A stretch of 64,000 nucleotides of DNA from Heptranchias perlo. Taxonomy: Eukaryota. Under the pieces are notes generated by a model. That model was given only the letters and a program-made list of their open reading frames with translations, did no database searches and had not been told where the DNA came from. Position 1 is the stretch's first letter. Every line of letters begins with the position of its first letter. The translations under genes were made by a program, and so were the position numbers. The DNA is taken from NCBI RefSeq assembly GCF_035084215.1, contig NC_090329.1, positions 29,388,001 to 29,452,000 of the forward strand, written 5' to 3'. Positions 20,707-44,921 of the stretch are shown here, piece after piece.

Positions 20707-23700
20707 CTTTGTAGGGCGTACTTTGTCTCTGATGCCAAGTTAGAGAAAAGACTGATATTTGCCTTGGTTTTGAACTGATTTATTAATAAATAAAACTACT
20801 TCCAATTTTTTTTTAAAAATTGCTCTTAGAGTGACTCTGGAAGACGATCACATACTTTTGTCAGTCACCTGAATCAATTAAATCTGATTCTTTCAAATGA
20901 GAAGTAGCCAGTCTTATAAGATGACAAAAACTTCTCACCAAGAGGAACTGTACCAATTATTCATCAAAACCCATATTTGCTATTACAACAATTCTTTTTC
21001 CTTTCCATGTGCCAGCTCAGATCCCACAATTTTCTGAGTTTACTATTGAAAAACTGAGGCCTTTTGCAGTATAAACACTGGGCAGAGTTTAATGATATAT
21101 TGATTATTGCCTTTGGAATGAAATGATGTGTCAGGTTACAGGTTAAAAAAAAATATGGGTAGTCAGGCTCTAGGTTTTCATGAATGCATAGCTAACAGCA
21201 ATATTACAAACAAACAAAATCAATTGTTAATTATACAATTGAAAGGCTGGACAAATGTATACACTGTAGGTGAATGAAAGGTGGCTAGTTCAGTAAATTC
21301 AGGACAATATTTTGTGAATGTGTCAGTGTATTTAAGATTTCACCAATACATTGTGAATTTTACAGTAAATAGAATACTGCAGTCAATTCTCCCCATACAA
21401 AATCAATGATTCAAATCATCCAATACCTTATGGTTTACAATGACATTAGAAGAAGCAGAAGGCCCCTCTATAAATCTGTGAAATAAACTTTAAAAACAAA
21501 CAATCTCTGAGAATGAATCACTTGTACTATACCACGGCAGCTATAATAGATTGCACACTGGCAAAAAGAAAAAACTGGAATTTGTCAAACGTGTTTATTA
21601 TAGTGGCTGCACACATCAAAACATAGGAAGTGAACTGTATAAAGTTACTCAACTAAAATCAAAAAAAACTAAATTAAAAGCAAGAACGAGAGTGTGGGGC
21701 TTCAGTAATAATTTTTTTTAAATTTAAAAATCAATCACAGTACACCAGAACTTACTTCTGGGATCAGGCAAACCAATTATTCAACTGAAATATGAGACAC
21801 TAAAGCACACAGTAATTGTGAGCTCTTTACTGGAAAATGAAACAGACAAGTCTCAATTTTCATCACTGCTTATGTGTAATCTGAAACAAAAAAATTAAAA
21901 CTTATGGGCTTTCTGGAGTCTAAAGAAATCAACTGAGTATTACATTCTCATATAAAAGCAATGTGTGTATTGCAGCATGATCTAAGGACATGATTAACTG
22001 GCTGGACAAAGGAACAAGTCAAATCACCATGATTTTGCTGAAGATTATTTTCCTGTTGTTAAGTGCAGACAATTCTTCTTGCAGGACTTCTGTTCATAGA
22101 TAGGACAGGAACCAACACCCAGTATTATCCCTGGTTTATATGTAAACAGAATCTGTACATATCCAAGAGTCACACAGCTTCATCCTGCTATTCACTTCAA
22201 TACAATGAACCACAATTTTACCACACAAAAAGGTGGTAGGGAGTAAAGAACATTAAAAAGATATTGAACAATACTCAAAATTAGAAGTTTGATTTTAGTC
22301 ATGATTGAGATTATACTAAATATCCAAAGTAAAATGGATTTGACACCAAGCCAACTCCCAGCACAAAACTGCCATCAAACTGAGCATGAATTCTAAGCTC
22401 ACATTCACTTTGAGATTATAAGGATGGTGTGAGAAACACAAGTCACTCTGGTACAGGAGGTTATATTTCTGCTAAGGAGAAAGTAAATTGTCACAATTAC
22501 ATACAACAGGAAGAATGCAATTACAAATGGCCCATCTCGTACTTTGGAAGCACATGACCAGGTGTTGCGGTAAAATAAAAATGAAATAACCTATGTTGCA
22601 TCATAATTTAAGCTATATAGCAACTAAATGTTTACAACACAAGGGAGTTTTATGATATACAATATGGGGCAAGAAACAAAAAGTATAGAATCTAGAATCA
22701 CATGGTTCCGGCTGACTTCAGTGAACTCAGCTAGAATTAGTGAGTTAGAGATTGATGTTTGTTTACTTCTGGGGTGCAGCAGAATAGCAAACCCTCTACT
22801 TACAAGTCACACAACAGACCAAAGGATTCTCTGCTTGGCATGCAAATAACAGAGGAGTCTGATGATGTAGACATCCTGATTGCATTACTGTAATCCAGAG
22901 TTAAATCATAAATTGTCCTACTTACAGATCAGCTAAACTTGTTTCAAACCAACATGTTCGAATTCTGAGAACAGACATTACCTTACTGGATTGGTGAAAC
23001 AGAACATTAGAAGAACAAGCAGGTGACTGCTATAGAGAACACCACGCAATAATTTCCACAGAGAACACCAAACTAATAGCAATAATCAATGATATTGAAA
23101 CATATTTAATAGGATAAAAACTTTCAGGTATCAGGAATCCCAGAATAGATCCAATAGGGTTTTAATTTTATTCCCCTTATGTATAAACAGAACATTAATT
23201 TCACTCCCCAGCACTCTTCCTTCCATTCACCCCAATCAATCAGGCAGATGTAGGCAGGGAGAAAACATTGTCAAAAAATGTCATATATGAAGGTCATATC
23301 ATGGGGTTTTGCACAAATCTTGAAAGCCACCAGGGTTATAGTGCAGCTTAAGTGGTTCTATCAGAAAACCAATGTGCAAGGAGGAGTCTGCTGTTGCTAA
23401 AAAATTTAAGTATAAATATAGGAAGTTATAACCGGCCCAGCTTCAATTGTCTGTAGGATAAAGACACAAACTCCAGAGACATTCAAGTCTTTGCTATAAA
23501 ACTACTTGCAATTGTAGCAGATGAGGAAGAAATCCAGTAGCTGACCCTTAAGGTTTTGTTATGTTTTGAATTTAGATAAAAAAGATTTGGAAGCCCGAGT
23601 TGGCATGACTTTTCAGTCTTAAGAGAGTTGGTTATCCAAGAATAGTAGTGAAAGCAGGAGCAATGACTAGGTGGAGAAATAATGCACACATCTGTCCGTA

Positions 23701-23994: not shown

Positions 23995-25050
23995 CTGGAT
24001 GTCCTTAAGCGGTCAAGGACAGAATCTATTTGGTTAGAGTTAAGGAACAATAGAGGCGCCATTATACTACTGGGTGTATTCTATAGGTCGCCAACTAGTG
24101 GGAAGGATATAGAGGAGCAAATTTGCAGGGAAATTACAGAGATGCGCAAGAACTACAGATAATGGGGGACTTCAACTATCCTAATATAGACTGGGATAGT
24201 GATAGTGTAAAGGGCAAAGAGAGGGAGGAATTTCCGAAGTATGTTCAGGAGAACTTTCTTGATCAGTATGTTTCCGGCCAATGAGGAAGGAGGCGTTGCT
24301 GGATATAGTTCTGGGGAATGAGGTGGGTCAAGTGGAGCAAGTGTCAGTGGGGGAACTTTTAGGGAACAGTGATCATAGTATCATAATGTTTAGATTAGTT
24401 ATGGAAAAGGACAAGGAGCAATCTAAAGTAAAAATACTTAATTGGAGGAAGGCCAATTTCAGTGGGTTGAGAACGGATCTGGCCCAAGTAAATTGGAATC
24501 AAAGATTGGCAGGTAAAACTGTAATTGAGCTATGTGTGGCTTTTAAAGAGGAGATGGTTCAGCTACAGTCTAGGCACATTCCCTCAAGGGGGAAAGGTAG
24601 GGCAAAGCCAGAGCTCCCCAGATGATAAGAGAGAGAAAGATGAAGCAGAAAAAGGGGGCGCATGACAGATGTCAGGTCGATAATACAAGTGAGAACCAGG
24701 CTGAATATAGAAAGTACAGAGAAGTGAAAAAGAAAATGAGGGGCAAAGAGAGAGTATGAGAATAGACTGGCAGCTAACACAAAAGGGAATCCAAAAGTCT
24801 TCTATAGGCATATAAATAGTAAACTGGTAGTAAGAGGAGGGGTGGGCCGATTAGGGATCAAAAAGGAGATCTACACATGGAGGCAGAGGGCATGGCTGAG
24901 GTACCAAATGAGTACTTTGCATCTGTCTTTACCATGGAAGATGCGGCCAAAGTCAAAGTAAAAGGAGGTAGTTGAGATACTGGATGGGCTAAAAATTTAT
25001 ACAAAGGAGATACTAGAAAGGCTGGCTGTACTTAAAGTAGATAAGTCAAC
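23995..25050 (+). mobile_element. CR1 ORF2 internal fragment (endonuclease-linker)
   Basis: GVFYRSP, MGDFNYPNIDW, LDIVLGNEVGQV, LGNSDHSIIMF; homologous to the reverse complement of 38700-39170. Confidence 0.9.
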
Positions 25051-25420
25051 CTAATGGTGTTATGATCACTGTACCCCAAATGCTCCCCCACTGAAACATG
25101 CTCCACTTGATTCCCCAGAACTAGATCTAGCACTGCTTCCTTCCTTGTTGGACTGGAAACACACTGATCAAGAAAGTTCTCTTGTAAACATTTCAGGAAT
25201 TCCTCTCTTTGCCCTTTACATGGTTACTGTCCTAGTCTATACTGGGATAATTGAAGCCCTCCATTATTACTCTATAGGTCTAGCATCTTTCTGTAATTTG
25301 CTCCTCTATCTGCTTCCCACTATTTGGTGGCTTATAGTATACACCCAGTAGGGTAATAGCTCCTCTACTGTTCCTTAATTCTAACCAAATAGATTCTCTG
25401 TCTTTGACCCCTCAACTGTA
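25051..25420 (-). mobile_element. CR1 endonuclease fragment, inverted relative to its neighbour
   Basis: Reverse complement aligns to 24010-24390 (ESIWLELRN..GAITLLGVYYKPP...LDLVLGNQVEHVSVGEHLGYSDHN) but is a diverged copy. Confidence 0.85.
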
Positions 25421-25577
25421 TTATAAAAAGACTAGAGAGTAATTGTACTCATCCACAAGGACCTGAACATTAAGGACAATAAGTGAGATATGTTAACTTA
25501 AAAACATGAGAGCAGTCAAGGTGAAGAACAGGCCAGCCATCGAAGCTCATCCTTCTCCTGAGCGAGGCTCAGGCAGA

Positions 25578-26228
25578 TTACTGTAAGCAAGATGTCCAAG
25601 CCCTGTGCCAATCAGCTTGAACTCTTCTCTCACTCCGGTTCTCAGACAGGGCTGTCCTGGGCAGAGTGAGAGGGGTCGGGGCCAGCGTCGTAGCCATCCG
25701 GCTGCCTGAAGTACCGCTGGCTTGCGGAGCTTTTGGCCTCTGCTGCAGGGACGCTCGGCCCGGGCTGCTCGGCGTTGCTCGGGCCGGAGTCTGGTCTCGC
25801 CTGGCCGGCGTCTGGTCCTCCATAGCGGACAGGTGTCGGTGAGGTTCCTTCGACGTAACCCGGCTTCCCAATATTCCTTGGTGTGACTTTATCTCCAGCT
25901 GATGTTTCTCCCGACTCAGGTGGTCCAGGTATTCCTTCAGGAGCCGTGCGTCGGTGCTTGGGGCCCTGTCGAGAACCAGCCTGCTCCTGTCCCGCAGAGT
26001 CAGCAGGAGTCGGCTCTGCTGCTTCTTCTCCTCCGAGGGGCAGATTCTCACCGCCTCCACATTGTGGCTCAGCTGGAAGGTCGTGGTGGGACCTCCGGAC
26101 CTGAAGTGCACGACCAGAGAGACGAGGTTATCCTTTTCCACGATTTCAAAGCTGCCTTCTCTCCACTTTGTGGTCCCGGTCTGTGTGCTGCCGATCCGCA
26201 TTCGGCCGGAAACTTTCATCGGCGCCAT
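25578..26228 (-). CDS. USP37: Intronless USP37-derived retrocopy (retrogene or processed pseudogene): N-terminal PH-like domain plus linker, 216 aa, no USP catalytic domain
   Basis: MAPMKVSGRMRIGSTQTGTTKWREGSFEIVEKDNLVSLVVHF...FQLSHNV...QSRLLLTLRD...DRAPSTDA matches the recalled vertebrate USP37 N-terminus (MSPLKIHGPIRIRSMQTGITKWKEGSFEIVEKENKVSLVVHY...FQLSHNI...QSRLMLTLQD...DKVPSKDA); ILGSR and SENRSERR also align. Strong Kozak ACGATGG at 26228. The frame is open upstream to a TAG at 26333-26331. This is a copy, not the parental locus. Confidence 0.85.
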   Translation of the reverse strand: MAPMKVSGRMRIGSTQTGTTKWREGSFEIVEKDNLVSLVVHFRSGGPTTTFQLSHNVEAVRICPSEEKKQQSRLLLTLRDRSRLVLDRAPSTDARLLKEYLDHLSREKHQLEIKSHQGILGSRVTSKEPHRHLSAMEDQTPARRDQTPARATPSSPGRASLQQRPKAPQASGTSGSRMATTLAPTPLTLPRTALSENRSERRVQADWHRAWTSCLQ

Positions 26229-26555
26229 CGTGGACAGGATTGATCGGTCTCTCAACCCCGCAAACCTCCACGTTTCCATAGAAACCGTTCCCGCTCGAGC
26301 TTCCGCCACCGCGAGATGGCGGCAACCAAGCTAAATGGCAGTTTGTTTTTCCCCTCCCCCGCACCCCTGTAAAAAGCACTTCAATTAATTGAGCTTGTAC
26401 CATTACTGGATAAATCAGTGGTATTCAGTGAGATAGATTGGCTTGTTGAACATGTGGTGGTTGGAAAGCCCCGTACAATGGGACTATTTTTTTCTTTCAT
26501 TTGTTCCTTTGTTATTGGCTTTTTGTAAGTGGTAAACTCACTTAATAAACCTAGT

Positions 26556-26653
26556 TCACATCGTTCACCTGAGGAAGGAGGTAGCCTCCGAAAGCTTGTG
26601 AATTTAAAATAAAATTGCTGGACTATAACTTGGTGTTGTAAAATTGTTTACAA
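26556..26653 (+). mobile_element. 98-bp Penelope-like mini-element with 14-bp target-site duplication
   Basis: TTAATAAACCTAGT at 26542-26555 and 26654-26667 flanks the insert; the tail is identical to bases 1-53. Confidence 0.85.
26564..26602 (+). ncRNA. Minimal type I hammerhead ribozyme motif
   Basis: Stem I TTCAC/GTGAA, core CTGAGGA plus an extra A, stem II GGAGG-TAG-CCTCC, GAAA, palindromic stem III AGCT, predicted cleavage after CUU (26597). Confidence 0.75.
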
Positions 26654-27959
26654 TTAATAAACCTAGTGACAGGGGCAGCTGCTGCCACTACCTCAATCTT
26701 TGAATCCGTGGACCTTTCAACTGAATAGACCCAAGCCGTATTGAACCCTCTGTTGCAAAGCTTTTTGACGCTTCAAGTTCAACATTAGTTCTGTAACAGG
26801 TAAAATTGTACTCAAGGCCTTCAGAGAAGCAAGATTATTGTATATATGTCAGGGAGGGAATAAACTAAGTTATTTTGCTTGAACAAAGCACTAAATTGGA
26901 ACAATGCATGCATTGAATGGTGACCAATAGATTTGCAATTGGTATATATTTAATGCTCTGATGGCATTTTAGGCTCAGATCCACTATTACAAACATAATG
27001 AGAAAGGAGGATCTTTCTTGCCATATGTGCTAACAAAAGTTGAAATGAAATAATTGGAAATGCCAGTTGGATCAATTATCAATGGCATATTTGCTCACTT
27101 TTATACTAAAATTATATAGGGCAGACCAACTTAAGTTTAGTTGAGAAATTTACAGCATAGAAGAAGTCTGCTCCTTTTTCTCCAGAAGCCATTAAACTCA
27201 TTGTGTCTGCTGGCTCTTTGCTAAAGCAATCAAAAACTAATCCCACTACACCATTCTCACCCAATAGTCCTGGAACTGGGAGCTTCAAGCCACTGTTTGG
27301 AGGTAACAGAATATCCTTGAAAAGCCACTGGAACTTGACAAAGTTTATAATTCTTTCAGTTCATGAAGAATAAGACTTAGTTTTACCTGTAATTATGTAA
27401 ATGTGCTTCAATATAGCGTAACACTGGAGGTAAACAGTGTTCTTTCCTGGATGAATGGATGGCAGGATAAACATTGGGAGGTATATTCGAGGGAGTCTAT
27501 TTAAATAGGTTACTAGTGTATTAGATGTTGCCTGTGTTATTGGAATCACAGAAATATCATTTGTGGCAAGGATCTGGACCAGTTCACAGTTTTAAATTAA
27601 TAAAAATTCTAAATTACAAAAATAGGATATAAGACAAATCAAGGTGATTTCCCCCCCCCCCCTCCATTACAATTTCAAGTGCTTACTACAGTGTACCACG
27701 TCATTTCACAACAAAAATATGACAGTACCTTGTCTACGCCACATGCATTTATACACAAGTCATCTTGTTAGAATATTGTAAACTTTTCTATATATAAAAT
27801 TCTTACCGTCTGCACGAACTTACATCAACTTTTTTCATTATAAATTTCTATGTCAATATTTATAATGGAAACTGCCTATGTACACTTGTCACACTGTAAT
27901 TATACTCTCCTGCCACTACATCACCGCCACTGGAGGCTGTAATTATACGCTTACATAAT

Positions 27960-39299: not shown

Positions 39300-40000
39300 T
39301 CATCTCACTGTTGTTGCTGCATAAATCCTTTAAACACATCAGCATCCACCTTGGACATGACCACAAATAAAACCACTTTACCTAAACAGAAATAAAATAA
39401 GTTTTTTTTCTCTTTATGCATTGTATGATATTTTCTTAAACCCTTTTTAGTTATTTTGTCTTCTTTTAAGTCCCGCACACCCACGTTTGATCCTGCAGCC
39501 TCTACCAATTCCGCTCTATAACTGGCCACCGGGAACTAAGCAAATAGCTCGGGGTAATTGGACTACCAATTTTCTCTCTCTCACTCTTACAAAGCTGTAA
39601 ACATTTGCTCAGAATTTCCTCTACCAGTACAAAGCATGGGTACACTAATACATTGCTCCACCATGTTAACAAGATCTGTGGCCACCATAGGGGCTATAGT
39701 GTTGTATCTAATCATCACACATGGTTCAAGAAGCAATGGATTTTCTTTCAGACTGGACCATTTTCATGGTTCTGGTCTGAACCTCTCACATCTAAAGCAG
39801 ACCAATTTCTGTCACATCACTTTAGTTCTCTCAGTTGCCTGCATATCCCTAGTCATTGCCAATTTCTCTATCATGCTGATCCCGGTTTTCTTACCAGCCT
39901 TGTTGCCATGTTCACCAAATCTTCGTTCACCAGATTTCTCCCTCTCCAGGTGTCCTTCCTCAAACTTCCTCACCTGTCTGTCCACCAACCCCAATCCAGA
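39300..40000 (-). mobile_element. Very degenerate Gypsy-like remnant (gag knuckle / integrase Zn region)
   Basis: Minus-strand LVCFRC (knuckle-like) near 39800 and PVASYRAELVEAA..NVGVRDLKE.KI near 39450-39535, resembling VVP..YR..IL..AH..GH.GV.KT..KI. Confidence 0.4.
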
Positions 40001-43000
40001 GCTGCCACGATAAGACTAAAAACTGACATTGAGTATAATATTCCACAGTTGCTTCAGACATCAGTCCTCTGCTACCATGCAGTCTACTTTCTTCCACACC
40101 AATAGATGAAACATTTTTAAAACTGAAAGCTACACATTGTGACATAAAAAAACAGAAGGAACAGACCAGTTCAGATTAACTATCTAATCTACTTAGCTCT
40201 GTGCTTTATGAGTTCTTAAATAGACCAGTTACCACTACTCAGTGTAAAGACATCGTACGGATTAACACATTGAACATAATCTTTCAATGTCACTTTTAAA
40301 AAAAAAAATACTCATGAAAAAGTACAACTGAAATCAATCTAATTAAAATGTTTTTCAAAATGACTACTAAAAAGGAGAGTATTTCAATGTAAAATATTCC
40401 CCTAGATATAATTAAATTTGAAGAAAAATTGAAAGTTCCTGCTAGAAGATATTCTCAATTTTGCAAGTAATTTCTCTCCACCACACCCCACAAAGACTCA
40501 CTATTTCAGATCTTTATTGGCACCCAGACCAATGGTCACATAAATTACCAGGACCGTCCTTCAGTGCCCTAGGACTGCTTCAGGATGATTTGAAGGTATC
40601 TGATTCAGAAAAAATTAGTATGAGCTGGAGACTACATGTACCACTGTGACTTTTTATAGCTTTATATAGGTGTAAACAAAATACACAAAATAAAGCTTTA
40701 ACTACAGTGAAAGTATGCATTTACACTTTATGTAATAGTGCATACCCAGGGGTTTCTAGTCTAATTGAGAGGTTCATCATAAACCATAAGAGTTGATCTC
40801 AGATTGTTTGAAATTGCATCTGATCCTCAAGATTAGACCGTGGTCTTAATCTCACTCTTGCTTATCTTACAGTATGTACTTTATCTGATCATTTGATAAA
40901 CTCGTAGTGAAAGCATTACAATTATCAGTGCCCGAGTGGGGATACCACTTATCAACTACACGGAGCACAGCCATTGGTAGCGGCCAGTCATATCTAACAA
41001 AGAAAAAGAAACTCACATAGGCTCAAGAAAACTAATACACAGCAGATACTTTATGGTTATAATTCTAACTAAATTGAGGTAAATTTTACATGATTTGTGG
41101 AGAGGGTGAGCTTAATGAATCAAATTGCTTTTCATATTCTAGGCTTTACAATGTTTCCTAAGTTTCAGTTATAAACTGTTTGAGGTTTCCTGTTGTGGTT
41201 CTATCAGAATGCTGCCTTGTAATCGTGCCCTGATTTATTTATATGTACACATACAGTATTTTCTTTAGAGTTAGAAATCATATTGTCTATTTTTAATGTC
41301 AGTATAGTTTTAACATCTCAATGCTATTATCCTCAAAAGTGCATTATTCTTAATAGTATTACAAGGGCACCATTTACATGTAAAAATAAATGCTGTAATA
41401 TGTCAAAGTATTACTATACCCTGCATAACTACTGTTCATCCTTGAAACTTCCAACTACAGTGGAGGTCATTGCACAGAAACAAAATTTCTAAGCTGTTAA
41501 TTTTTGGGTAATTTCCCTTGAGAGAACTTTGATTGTGCAGAGTATTCACATTTCAGTAGTTTTCAGTGGTGCTGCAATCATTTTACTGCCCTACTTCCAA
41601 TCTTCAGAGCAACAGACTACAACCAAGCAGCAATTCTTTTAGAATGGGTCATTAGCAACTTTAAAAATCCCTTTCCAAATTATACACCAGTATATTGCTG
41701 CTTCAGGACACAATGGGCCATGTTGTCAGCAATCAAAAAGGGAAACTGTGTAAGTGAATGGAATTTTAAATATTCAGTTTCAACCATCTAGTTTTAAAGA
41801 CAGCCAATAATATTGCAAAAGCTGATAACATCTCATATTGCCAGGATACAAATGTAGATATAAGATCACAAAGTGGGATGAATGTAGATTAGCATTTTCC
41901 TTTGGGTTTCAAGCAAGGTAACCAACCGTCTGCTGCTGTGGGGAATCTGGGACACTAACCAGTGGCCATAATTCTTAAGTGTCCCAAACACTGTTAGTGT
42001 AATAGAGAGATGTCACTCCTGGACCACTTCATTAACACTAAATTTCTCTGCAATTAGTTGATGCAGCAGTTCCTCCAGCAAAATAATTCTTGCTCTGCCC
42101 TAGCTCTTGCACTCTACTTTGGCCCATCCTATGCTAATGTGTTTGACTGGTAATACTTGTGGGTAATGGCCCCATGCTAATGTGTTCAATCCTTGGTCAG
42201 ACAAGACTGGCCTCTGCTGTGTTCTGCCCATGGATGCACAGCATTCTGTTTTGAGCCAGGCCACCCTGCACTGATGGTATCACATCCACACCACTTTGTG
42301 TTAATGCCTTAGGTGGTCTGTTCCCTTCTAGAACTCTACTTCTACTATGGCATCAATATTAGAAAGCACCACCTTTAGTAGGCCAGCAACCCATAGTCAG
42401 ATAGCCCTAAATACAAGCTATCACCCAAGGCCAATGTGATCTACTCTCAATGCAAGATACAGCACACTATGCTTTTGATAAGGCACACCATGTTAGTGCA
42501 CTCCTCAAGCAGATGGCATGTGCCACCGTGCTCTGACCTCAGCTGGGCTGCCTCATTAATGCGTTCAGTCTTCAGCACTCAGTCAGACGATCCCTCAGTC
42601 AATGCTATGCCTTTTAGTTTAGTATTCTCTACCGCTATTTCTCCAATGTGTGCTGCCCCTCCCCATGTGCCATCCCACTCTTAACGTGCTCCTCCCCACT
42701 TGCCTCCACAGGTTTGTCCAAGGTTTAGTCAGTTCACCCCGACGCTGACCCTCCCTCGGATGCCCCATTCTAACACATCCCAAGGTACCACAGCTCCTGT
42801 CCTGGAGCCCTGCCCTGAACCTCTTGCCGACACACCCGTCCCCTTCTCCAGTTGCTCCGCCCCGGAGGCTGACCATCGCTTCCGCGCTCCGCCCTCAAAC
42901 CCACACCGCGCAGCTGGCCGCTGTGGAGTCGAGCAGTCACTCTCACCTGCAGCCGATAGTGAGCGGAGCAAACAATTTGGAAGATAACACAAAACACACC

Positions 43001-43205
43001 GGCAGCCCCAGCAATGCAACCCACCCCCGGCTCTACCCTCAGCCACTAACCATCTATTGCTAACAGCCACCCTCCCAAGTCCAAGCTCAACAGCATATAA
43101 TTGCCAGATACATAATAAGTGGTGTCTGAGCCCTGTAATCACAGAGACCAACCTCCGGAGTTAGCAGCGCGCAGCACATTCAAAAACAAGACCCGGAATA
43201 TTTAC

Positions 43206-43223
43206 CTTCTTCAACGCTGACAT
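43206..43223 (-). CDS. DLGAP2: DLGAP2 (SAPAP2) first coding exon, MSALKK
   Basis: AATACC-ATG TCA GCG TTG AAG AAG|GTAAAT: good Kozak and a phase-0 donor after 18 nt. Matches the recalled mammalian long-isoform start MSALRK, and lies head-to-head with ERICH1 as in human 8p23. The match is short, so synteny carries the call. Confidence 0.78.
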
Positions 43224-43678
43224 GGTATTTTTTCCCTTTCAGCACGCCATGCATGACACTGTGAGGACGGTACGTGAGAGCCACGCTTGCAATTCTGTCT
43301 GCAGCTACACAGACTTTTATTTTCCTCCTCTATTCCCAGGCACTAACCGTCACTCTGGCTCGCACCCACCCCGCGTGCACCAGATCCGCTGCCCCAGAAA
43401 CATCAACCGCGCATGCGCGCCGGCGGGAGGCCCGGGCGAGTGCCGTCAGACGGAACCACGACGACGCATGCGCGGTGCCTGGACATTTCCCTTCTTTCCC
43501 CCCGCCCGGCCGGCCGCAGTGGGAAGGCGGGGAACCCGCTAGCCCGGCACAGCCAATTAGAGGATTCGAATTCCGTCAGGCCACGCCTCCTTTTTTTTCG
43601 TGATCGACGTGTGGCCGCGCGGCGGATGTCCGTTAAACCGAAAAGGAACGAGCTGGAGATTGGAATTAAATCAGTGTG
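43224..43678. promoter_or_regulatory. Bidirectional CpG-island promoter (island extends ~42800-44300)
   Basis: CpG-dense; NRF1-type GCGCATGCGC 43409-43418 and ACGCATGCGC 43464-43473, GC-box-like motifs, CCAAT 43553-43557; lies between two divergent ATGs. Confidence 0.85.
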
Positions 43679-43697
43679 ATGGTGGATAGGAAGCAGG
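43679..43697 (+). CDS. ERICH1: ERICH1 coding exon 1 (MVDRKQ, phase 1)
   Basis: ATG GTG GAT AGG AAG CAG G|GTAAGG; joins in frame to 51125 giving MVDRKQAFKQKVLKKLY (recalled human MAAHRKHVFVEKVLQRLF). Confidence 0.8.
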
Positions 43698-44921
43698 GTA
43701 AGGGACGGCGGCGGCGGCGGCGGCTAAGGGGTGTTTTGTTTTTAAAATTGCGGGGCTGGGATGTGTTTACTTGCCCCGACCTCGGATTGGTGGCAGCGGC
43801 CTCCTGGCTGCGATTAATCACTGTCACCGAGGCCCCCCGGGGGGGGGGGGGGGCAGCGGACAGGTGTTAACACACGAGGGAGCCCGCGACTCTCAAACGA
43901 GGAGCGGAAAGAAATTTGCTCAGACGCTGCAAATCTGAGTCAAAAGAAAACTGCTGAGACAACCCTGAGCAAGCCGGTCAGCAGCTGTAGAGACAACAGG
44001 CCTGGCAACGGTTGGACGAAGAGCCCCGCCCGAATCGGTAACGCCCGCTGTTCTCTCCACAGGACCAGCCGAGCCCCGCGCTTCCGGCGGTTTCTGGTTT
44101 TGCCTTTGACTCGGAGTCGGTTTAAAGTTAACTAACAGTTTACCCACAGCTTTAACGTGAAGAGACAGGCGGACAGGAAGTGAACAAAGGACTGTGGTCT
44201 GTCTGTCTGTGTGTGTGTGTGTGTATAGATTTTGTGTGTCAGGCCTTGTGGGGAGATTGCATTTATAGAGAGCGCCTTTCGCCTCCTCGGGATGTCTCAA
44301 AAGTGCTCCACGGCCAATTCACACATTTTGAAGTGTGGTCACTGTTTTAGTGTAGTCAGAGGACCAACCTCAGTGAAATCCTCAGCTGTTAAGAAGTTGT
44401 GACATATTTCTCCTCAATCCTTCGGGAACTTTATAAACAGTTTTGAAGTGGCAATTCTAGAAGTGAGTATACTGCACATTAGCTAAATGGAAATTTTTTT
44501 CTTGGATAGAGGTTTAGGGGCTTGCATCCCCCTCCCCAGAGTTTTTTTAAACAATTTTTTTAGTTATAATTTTTCCATTATTATCTATATATTTTAATAT
44601 GTGGAAAATATACCCCACTAAGCTCAGAACAAATGTAAAAGTATGTATGTTGTAGCAATCTCTTGTAAAGCCACTGAGAGTCTGGAATGTACTCTTGACA
44701 ATATTAGCACACAAATGCTAAATCAGTTTGTTTGATATTCTTTGGTCATTATTTTAATGCAGGTATTAAACCTTTTTAAGCAGGCTAACACCACCATTAA
44801 AGTATCTATAGAATTTTAAAAATGTTGTAGCACAGATGTAAGCTATTTAGAACATTTTACCTATGCCAGCTCTCTGAAAGAGTTATCCACTTAATCTCAT
44901 TCATGTATATAAGTTTTTTTT

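What the first reader, a model, noticed from the sequence alone, without database searches (positions are those of the whole stretch)
25578..26366. Frame-preserved, catalytically truncated USP37 retrocopy nested in sense in DLGAP2 intron 1
Seen: a 216-codon uninterrupted ORF with strong Kozak, far more GC- and CpG-rich than its flanks, in a window where nearly every old TE is riddled with stops. Against the recalled USP37 sequence it has many substitutions, yet each apparent indel keeps frame (EEKKQQSR insertion, deletion before ILGSR, 21-nt duplication). Known: USP37 is multi-exonic across this region, and mammalian USP26 and USP29 are USP37-related genes with intronless coding regions. Inference: this may be an independent chondrichthyan USP37 retrogene encoding only the PH-like domain plus a disordered tail, possibly a decoy or adaptor without deubiquitinase activity.
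Basis: partly seen in the sequence, partly recalled or inferred. Interest (0 to 1): 0.8.

Follow-up and report, generated by a model that had tools for sequence, protein, structure and literature searches.

The report
Truncated USP37 retrogene in a shark
An old, intron-free partial copy of the DNA-replication enzyme gene USP37 sits inside the DLGAP2 gene of a shark; it has kept an open reading frame for the part that docks onto the replication machinery but lacks the enzyme part, and its changes avoid the conserved positions, which suggests it is or was a working gene.

Summary
Confirmed: window 26228-25578 (-) is a 216-codon ORF made of spliced USP37 exons 1-5 plus about 14 nt of exon 6 (five introns lost). 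The parent is a multi-exon gene on another contig; the copy lies in sense in DLGAP2 intron 1. It encodes the PH domain and part of the linker, and no catalytic domain. It is old: dS about 0.28, roughly 125-230 My at a published shark rate. Amino-acid changes on its branch spare deeply conserved sites (4 of 56, against 19 of 51 shark-only sites; p=0.0003), and all its indels keep frame, so the protein was under purifying selection. That selection was relaxed (35 of 50 changes on the copy's branch) and substitutions are GC-biased. Contigs of three runs guessed to be RNA, all from one sample, cover the ORF. The '21-nt duplication' is not an indel. No orthologue was found. Whether selection acted on the truncated form or on an earlier full-length copy is open. 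Best reading: a PH-only retrogene whose product could compete with USP37 for CDC45; the decoy step is inferred.

The parts
26229..26333 (-). 5' UTR copied from parent non-coding exon 1 and the UTR of exon 2; 37 bp at 86% identity to exon 1 (26327-26291)
25578..26228 (-). 216-codon ORF (P0001), with inherited strong start context
25914..26228 (-). PH domain, residues 1-105 (Pfam UCH_N); the single-sequence model's best match is the USP37 PH domain 3u12
25622..25913 (-). USP37 linker, residues 106-201, low-confidence/disordered in the model; holds the +12 and -18 nt length changes
26072..26073 (-). exon 2/3 junction (intron lost); further junctions near 25900 (3/4), 25812/25811 (4/5), 25636/25635 (5/6) and in the 5' UTR (1/2)
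25578..25621 (-). non-USP37 end of the ORF (about 15 codons and the stop), after homology ends in a purine-rich tract about 14 nt into exon 6; cuts the parent's KRKR motif; no poly(A) tail seen
25621..26370 (.). CpG island matching the insert; 20 CpG only in the copy, 5 only in the parent, 21 shared
25606..25619 (.). 14-bp arm (12 of 14 match) of an inverted repeat at the 3' boundary; partner at 26327-26340
   Evidence: 19 of 5000 shuffles reached the score
26327..26340 (.). 14-bp arm of the inverted repeat at the 5' boundary; may overlap parent-derived letters
26146..26403 (-). out-of-frame upstream ORF (85 aa) that overlaps the main start; an in-frame ATG at 26279 would add 17 aa
23600..24040 (-). 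laid end of 2.6-2.9 kb contigs in runs X5 and X6; possibly a long 3' UTR reaching about 21150-21500 if colinear (inferred; only 440 nt were laid)
43206..43223 (-). DLGAP2 first coding exon (MSALKK, GT donor) in the CpG island 42800-44100

Best explanation
An old processed copy of USP37 mRNA (transcription start to early exon 6) integrated in sense into DLGAP2 intron 1 of a hexanchiform-like shark. It became a single-exon gene with its own CpG island and has been kept as a protein under relaxed purifying selection, with GC-biased substitution. Its product is a folded PH domain with a disordered tail and no deubiquitinase. Because the USP37 PH domain alone binds the CMG helicase through CDC45, the most likely action is a dose-dependent competitor: it occupies the CDC45 docking site without removing ubiquitin, and so favours replisome ubiquitylation and unloading. 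Shown here: retroposition, truncation, host position, sparing of conserved residues, frame-keeping indels, predicted fold, and cover by contigs of RNA-guessed runs. Inferred: own promoter, translation, present-day selection on the truncated form, and CDC45 binding. The decoy step alone I put at about 0.25.
For: Five introns lost. No 3' remainder in the genome or in the intron. At sites where the parent agrees with at least 7 of 8 other elasmobranchs, the copy changed 4 of 56 sites also conserved in amniotes, against 19 of 51 shark-only sites: Fisher p=0.0003; PH 3/43 vs 8/26, p=0.015; tail 1/13 vs 11/25, p=0.03. pS is equal in both site classes (0.22, 0.24) while pN is 0.065 vs 0.173. Neutral simulation expects 13-16 hits at conserved sites, 4 were seen, and 0 of 600 runs went that low in each of three models, including the observed GC-biased spectrum. 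In 37 local repeat pairs 54 of 321 gaps are multiples of 3, so three in-frame indels have P about 0.005 (two: 0.03) and 3-4 frameshifts were expected. Pairwise dN/dS 0.51-0.56. Contigs of 3 of 3 RNA-guessed runs laid cover the ORF (one sample, one study). The fold matches 3u12, E 3e-10. Of the eight Xenopus residues whose mutation cut replisome binding (10.1101/2024.09.03.611025, passage), five are identical in the copy and one is K to R. The PH domain alone binds CMG (PMC12084625, passage; 10.1101/2024.09.03.610971, passage).
Against: The copy carries 35 of 50 amino-acid differences (parent 9, unclear 6), so its own dN/dS is well above the pairwise 0.55, probably 0.7-0.9 outside conserved sites; pN/pS there is 0.72. 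The tail alone gives 0.75 (CI 0.35-1.56). Lack of stops is weak evidence: P 0.06-0.51, and 0.51 under the observed GC bias (58 weak-to-strong differences vs 17). Two of the eight interface positions differ non-conservatively (13 N to G; 63, where sharks already have S), no better than the protein's average. The conserved SxxFGG stretch and the KRKR motif are lost. A strong-context 85-aa upstream ORF overlaps the start if transcription begins above 26403. The protein is not in the 15-billion collection and no orthologue was found. The tests cannot say when selection acted. The runs are only guessed to be RNA, and contigs show neither strand nor start.
Confidence: 0.5

Rival explanations
1. The copy worked for a time, possibly as a full-length USP26/USP29-like retro-deubiquitinase. 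It later lost its 3' three-quarters and is now a transcribed relic whose frame has survived slow shark mutation and GC bias. The selection signal is historical.
For: Sparing extends to conserved linker residues (1/13 vs 11/25), as expected if the whole enzyme was once under selection. There is no poly(A) tail, and LINE fragments begin about 200 bp past the break. A conserved motif is deleted and most changes lie on the copy's branch. USP37 has given full-length retrogenes before (PMC4538816, passage).
Against: No 3' remnant anywhere. The break lies in a purine-rich tract and a short inverted repeat marks both ends, which fits truncation at insertion. No frameshift, though 3-4 were expected over the whole branch. 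RNA-guessed contigs still cover it.
Confidence: 0.33
2. A never-functional processed pseudogene. GC-biased conversion at its CpG island avoids stops, and the in-frame indels are luck among many retrocopies in a 3.2-Gb genome.
For: P(no stop) is 0.51 under the observed spectrum; strong weak-to-strong bias; the +6 lies in a triplet-like run and the +12 may be ancestral; the locus was picked because its frame is open.
Against: The sparing of conserved sites holds under the GC-biased model (0 of 600; p=0.0003) and does not depend on how the locus was picked.
Confidence: 0.09
3. The useful product is the RNA or the CpG island: an intronic promoter or poly(A) site that cuts DLGAP2 transcripts short, or a long 3' UTR with an edited hairpin. 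Protein constraint is secondary.
For: Sense position 17 kb below DLGAP2 exon 1; CpG island exactly over the insert; an inverted CR1 pair downstream folds into a long stem.
Against: Selection is seen at amino-acid level. The donor-like site near 25634 would be out of phase with DLGAP2 exon 2 (sequence). Contigs run unspliced through the stop.
Confidence: 0.08

Closest known systems
USP26 and USP29 (mammalian retrogenes of USP37; PMC4538816, passage seen)
   Same: Same parent, processed copy, faster protein evolution than the parent, N-terminal PH domain.
   Different: Those are 794-945 aa proteins, taken from recall to be active enzymes. This copy arose separately in an elasmobranch and stops at parent residue about 199, with no catalytic domain.
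Engineered USP37 PH-only fragment (PMC12084625, passage; 10.1101/2024.09.03.610971, passage)
   Same: The PH domain alone binds CMG/CDC45; this ORF is a natural version of that construct plus about 95 linker residues.
   Different: Natural, about 20% diverged on its own branch, binding not tested. The word 'dominant' did not occur in the two papers searched for it.
Processed pseudogenes and retrogenes of non-mammalian vertebrates (PMC13320880, passages and a search of 3 supplements)
   Same: Exon-junction-spanning copy far from its parent; open-frame copies are a known minority (about 10-50%).
   Different: Keeps the 5' end and lacks the 3' end and poly(A) tail, the reverse of the usual pattern (recalled). 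Pairwise dN/dS 0.51-0.56 just misses that paper's 0.5 cut-off for purifying selection.
Intronic CpG-island retrogenes of mammals such as Mcts2 and Nap1l5 (recalled, no call)
   Same: A retrocopy forms a CpG island inside a host intron.
   Different: Those are imprinted mammalian loci; methylation and allelic expression were not tested here.
LTR-mediated retrocopies in sharks (scan notes e1-8025847, e1-8020819)
   Same: Spliced host fragment without poly(A); short TG...CA inverted ends.
   Different: Only 14 bp of inverted repeat, no target duplication seen, unique flanks. LTR origin is not supported.

Membership tests
processed retrocopy | exon-exon junctions of a parent elsewhere in the genome | tested here: met
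   five junctions; parent on G000:C7
processed retrocopy | poly(A) tail and target-site duplication | tested here: not met
   no poly(A); only a weak 110-128 bp direct similarity that depends on scoring (0 of 386 to 249 of 383 random windows reached it); age may have erased both
functional retrogene | intact frame with purifying selection on the protein | tested here: met
   relaxed, and timing unknown
functional retrogene | transcription | tested here: inconclusive
   contigs of 3 of 3 RNA-guessed runs laid cover the ORF; one sample, one study, no strand or start
functional retrogene | conserved orthologues in related species | tested here: inconclusive
   none among predicted proteins, but this locus is itself unannotated there and no other shark genome could be searched
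functional retrogene | translation | not testable with these tools
   needs ribosome profiling or proteomics
USP37/USP26/USP29 deubiquitinases | N-terminal UCH_N PH domain | tested here: met
USP37/USP26/USP29 deubiquitinases | USP catalytic domain with Cys and His boxes, and UIMs | tested here: not met
   homology ends at parent residue about 199; no other piece in the genome or intron
CMG-binding USP37 PH domain (decoy reading) | CDC45-contact residues kept | tested here: inconclusive
   5 of 8 identical, 1 conservative, 2 changed
CMG-binding USP37 PH domain (decoy reading) | binding to CDC45 | not tested
LTR-mediated retrocopy | flanking LTRs repeated elsewhere in the genome | tested here: not met
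   both flanks matched only themselves; the joined palindrome had 0 matches; these searches skip common words

The most novel reading that the evidence does not exclude
A PH-only USP37 retrogene, truncated from birth and kept for over 100 My, encodes a natural competitor of USP37 at the CDC45 site of the CMG helicase. It would tune replisome unloading in a slow-mutating deep-sea shark lineage, and would be a third independent USP37 retrogene and the first without an enzyme domain.
Probability: 0.22. Interest if true: 0.8.

Novelty: new variant of a known kind. Interest (0 to 1): 0.55.

Why it matters
USP37 protects replisomes by docking on CDC45 through its PH domain. A natural, selected PH-only paralogue would be a ready-made regulator of that step, and a direct test of whether the PH fragment can act against the full enzyme. 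It would also show that USP37 has been retro-duplicated and kept outside mammals, and that annotation misses such genes: this ORF is absent from the protein collection although its parent is there. If it is only a relic, it is still a dated example of an open frame and a CpG island built up under GC bias in a slowly evolving genome.

Tried and rejected
Sequencing runs: no RNA holder is listed on record; 8 runs were listed, 4 DNA-guessed and 4 RNA-guessed, one sample, 2 studies; 4 of the 8 were laid. Silent-stretch control: X5 and X6 have depth 0 in all 6 bins from 39608 to 43599, X8 has 0 in 5 of 6, while DNA run X1 covers all 6. This fits RNA, but a hole proves nothing. It also means DLGAP2 exon 1 was not seen and no exon 1-to-copy joint appeared among the joints shown (740 were not shown). 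Orthologue hunt: near-length search 12 hits of 365 candidates, best identity 50%; longer search best 67%, the parent's protein; 50 representatives, none closer than shark USP37 over the full length; scan look-ups by sequence, relatives and place were empty. Spliced exon of a full paralogue: rejected. A 12-nt microexon in parent intron 3 as source of the +12 nt: best ungapped match 11 of 19, not found. Origin of the 3' tail and the 5' flank: no second match in G000. Homology to the parent promoter above exon 1: 104 of 200 shuffles reached the score. Long direct repeat or LTR pair: scoring-dependent, not accepted. Palindromic empty site elsewhere: 0. Tree: the copy sits next to the parent in the elasmobranch group, but the root falls between them with weak support (80/81); holding them together is not rejected (p-AU 0.175), so the branch of origin is unresolved. 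Selection tests left out 12 of 191 aligned codons around the exon 3/4 junction. Literature: 'USP37' with 'shark' 0 papers; 'retrogene', 'truncated', 'DLGAP2' 0; 'USP37' 0 times in 3 supplements of PMC13320880, whose per-locus retrocopy tables were not among the files seen and may list this locus. No complex prediction was run.

Full report
The observation. A 216-codon ORF runs from 26228 to 25578 on the minus strand. Residues 1-105 match Pfam UCH_N and the solved USP37 PH domain 3u12 by sequence. A single-sequence model (mean pLDDT 56.8; about 57-80 over the first 110 residues, below 50 in most of the tail) has 3u12 as its best structural match. The insert is a sharply bounded CpG island: GC 0.59-0.64 and CpG o/e 0.73-1.07 inside, 0.35-0.43 and 0.16-0.24 outside.

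It is a processed copy. The genome holds one multi-exon USP37 on contig C7. Its exons match protein P0014, labelled Heptranchias perlo, nearly letter for letter. The window joins parent exon 1 (non-coding) and exons 2, 3, 4 and 5 without introns, then about 14 nt of exon 6, and homology stops in a purine-rich tract. No other USP37 piece was found in the genome (a stricter first look) or in 114 kb spanning the whole host intron. No poly(A) tail is seen. A 14-bp inverted repeat (12 of 14) marks both boundaries, and 19 of 5000 shuffles reached its score. A longer direct similarity between the flanks depends on scoring. The insertion mechanism is open. Internal priming or capture at a break in a short palindrome fits the anatomy (inference). 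An LTR origin, suggested by two scan notes, was not supported.

Host. An MSALKK exon with a GT donor lies at 43223-43206 in a second CpG island; 11 of 120 DLGAP2-like hits begin with MSAL. Exon 2 is at C5:29341593, and the later exons, whose best shark hits are named DLGAP2, lie down to C5:28464416. The copy is in sense in a 90-kb intron 1, 17 kb below exon 1.

The 21-nt 'duplication' has the same length in the parent and other sharks. The true differences are +6, +12 and -18 nt. The +12 restores the length found in bony vertebrates and lamprey and may be ancestral. Part of the GC and CpG is inherited, but 20 CpG are found only in the copy against 5 only in the parent.

Age. dS is 0.28-0.30 by four methods. 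Whale and zebra shark differ by dS 0.061-0.111 over about 50 My (PMC13100897, passages), which gives about 126-229 My. This is rough: the parent lies 5 Mb from a contig end and the copy is GC-biased. The protein tree puts the copy beside the parent with an uncertain root. A 2026 preprint finds the position of Hexanchiformes itself unsettled and dates their split at about 230-340 Ma (10.64898/2026.02.13.705779, passages). An origin on the hexanchiform stem is likeliest; an older origin is not excluded.

Selection. Pairwise dN/dS is 0.55 (bootstrap 0.34-0.92; PH 0.42, tail 0.75) over 179 of 191 aligned codons. Of 50 amino-acid differences, 35 map to the copy, 9 to the parent and 6 are unclear, so much of the pairwise signal could be the parent's. 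Differences run weak-to-strong 58 to 17, which raises dN and avoids stops: P(no stop) is 0.06-0.51. The stronger test asks where the copy's changes fall. Among sites where the parent agrees with at least 7 of 8 other elasmobranchs, it changed 4 of 56 that are also at least 90% conserved in 111 amniote sequences, and 19 of 51 that are not (p=0.0003; PH p=0.015; tail p=0.03), with equal synonymous change in the two classes. Neutral simulation expects 13-16 conserved hits against 4 seen, and 0 of 600 runs went that low under each of three mutation models. Local repeat pairs show 54 of 321 gaps in multiples of three, so 3-4 frameshifts were expected and three in-frame indels have P about 0.005. 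The protein was therefore under purifying selection for a good part of the branch, more weakly than the parent. One genome cannot tell whether this acted on the truncated form or on an earlier full-length copy.

Expression. No run is on record as RNA. Three small runs guessed to be RNA, from one sample and one study, were laid with one DNA run. Their contigs cover 25266-26420, 25395-26578 and 25451-26386, the whole ORF, unspliced through the stop. Two also hold 2.6-2.9 kb contigs that end at about 24040 and may be a long 3' UTR. The silent-stretch control is told under Tried and rejected. Contigs give no strand, start or level. An 85-aa out-of-frame upstream ORF from 26403 overlaps the start and would lower translation if transcription begins above it.

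Mechanism. Three papers (passages seen) show that the USP37 PH domain binds CDC45 in the CMG helicase, that the PH domain alone suffices, and that binding is needed to stop premature ubiquitin-driven replisome unloading (10.1101/2024.09.03.611025; PMC12084625; 10.1101/2024.09.03.610971). Of the eight Xenopus interface residues mutated in the first paper, the copy keeps R11, K21, W22 and the equivalents of R71 and D85; it has R for K86, G for N13, and C at 63 where sharks have S. A PH-only product would most simply compete for that site without deubiquitylating. This is inference: binding and translation are untested, and the KRKR motif is cut by the truncation.

Comparison and novelty. USP26 and USP29 are retrogenes of USP37 (PMC4538816, passage; PMC5381560, passages on DUB retrogenes) and are long proteins. 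This copy is independent and has no enzyme domain, so it is not a member of the deubiquitinase family, though it may dock like one. Searches for USP37 with shark and for a truncated retrogene with DLGAP2 gave 0 papers. Three supplements of the VGP preprint do not name USP37, but its locus tables were not seen. No orthologue was found among predicted proteins.

Verdict. Real, old and shaped by protein-level selection: a new variant of a known kind. Living PH-only retrogene 0.50 (decoy at CDC45 about 0.22-0.25 overall), once-functional relic 0.33, neutral pseudogene 0.09, RNA or cis role 0.08. Interest 0.55.

Noticed in passing
window 24005-24390 and 25048-25415: Inverted pair of CR1-like fragments (76% identical) just downstream of the stop; the minus strand folds into a long stem. 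Run X5 shows 22 T>C places against 8 in the DNA run and 18 differences in the contig over 25266-25941, which could be A-to-I editing of a minus-strand RNA or another repeat copy.
   Followed up: partly
window 25529: C>T in the contigs of X6 and X8 but not X5 or X1: possibly a heterozygous site in the 3' UTR.
   Followed up: no
window 25912-25944: A 33-nt stretch identical to the parent; contigs of all four runs break there, so assemblies split this ORF, which may help explain why it is missing from protein collections.
   Followed up: partly
G000:C7:5275600-5275700 (L005): The parent's exon 1 donor region appears as a tandem duplication of about 47 bp.
   Followed up: no
L035 (G000:C2:139288924-139289223): A 300-nt CDC45-like match with one stop, on a different contig from the CDC45 exon at C28; possibly a CDC45 retrocopy or a chance hit. 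One frame was translated without result.
   Followed up: partly
USP37 protein tree: The Heptranchias-labelled USP37 falls outside all other sharks and rays (97/95), as in the ultraconserved-element tree of 10.64898/2026.02.13.705779; 210 columns only, and long branches may pull.
   Followed up: partly
P0275, P0278: Short USP37-like proteins from frogs (200 aa, Bombina; 341 aa, Hyperolius 'USP26-like') may be assembly fragments or other truncated copies.
   Followed up: no
window 42800-44100: DLGAP2 promoter CpG island (98 CpG, o/e 0.88); the gene spans about 967 kb on C5 from this exon to the last GKAP exon.
   Followed up: partly
window 26564-26655: Short high-copy repeat 230 bp above the insert, with copies elsewhere in the window and near the parent, and very high depth in all runs; Penelope-like end by recall.
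   Followed up: no
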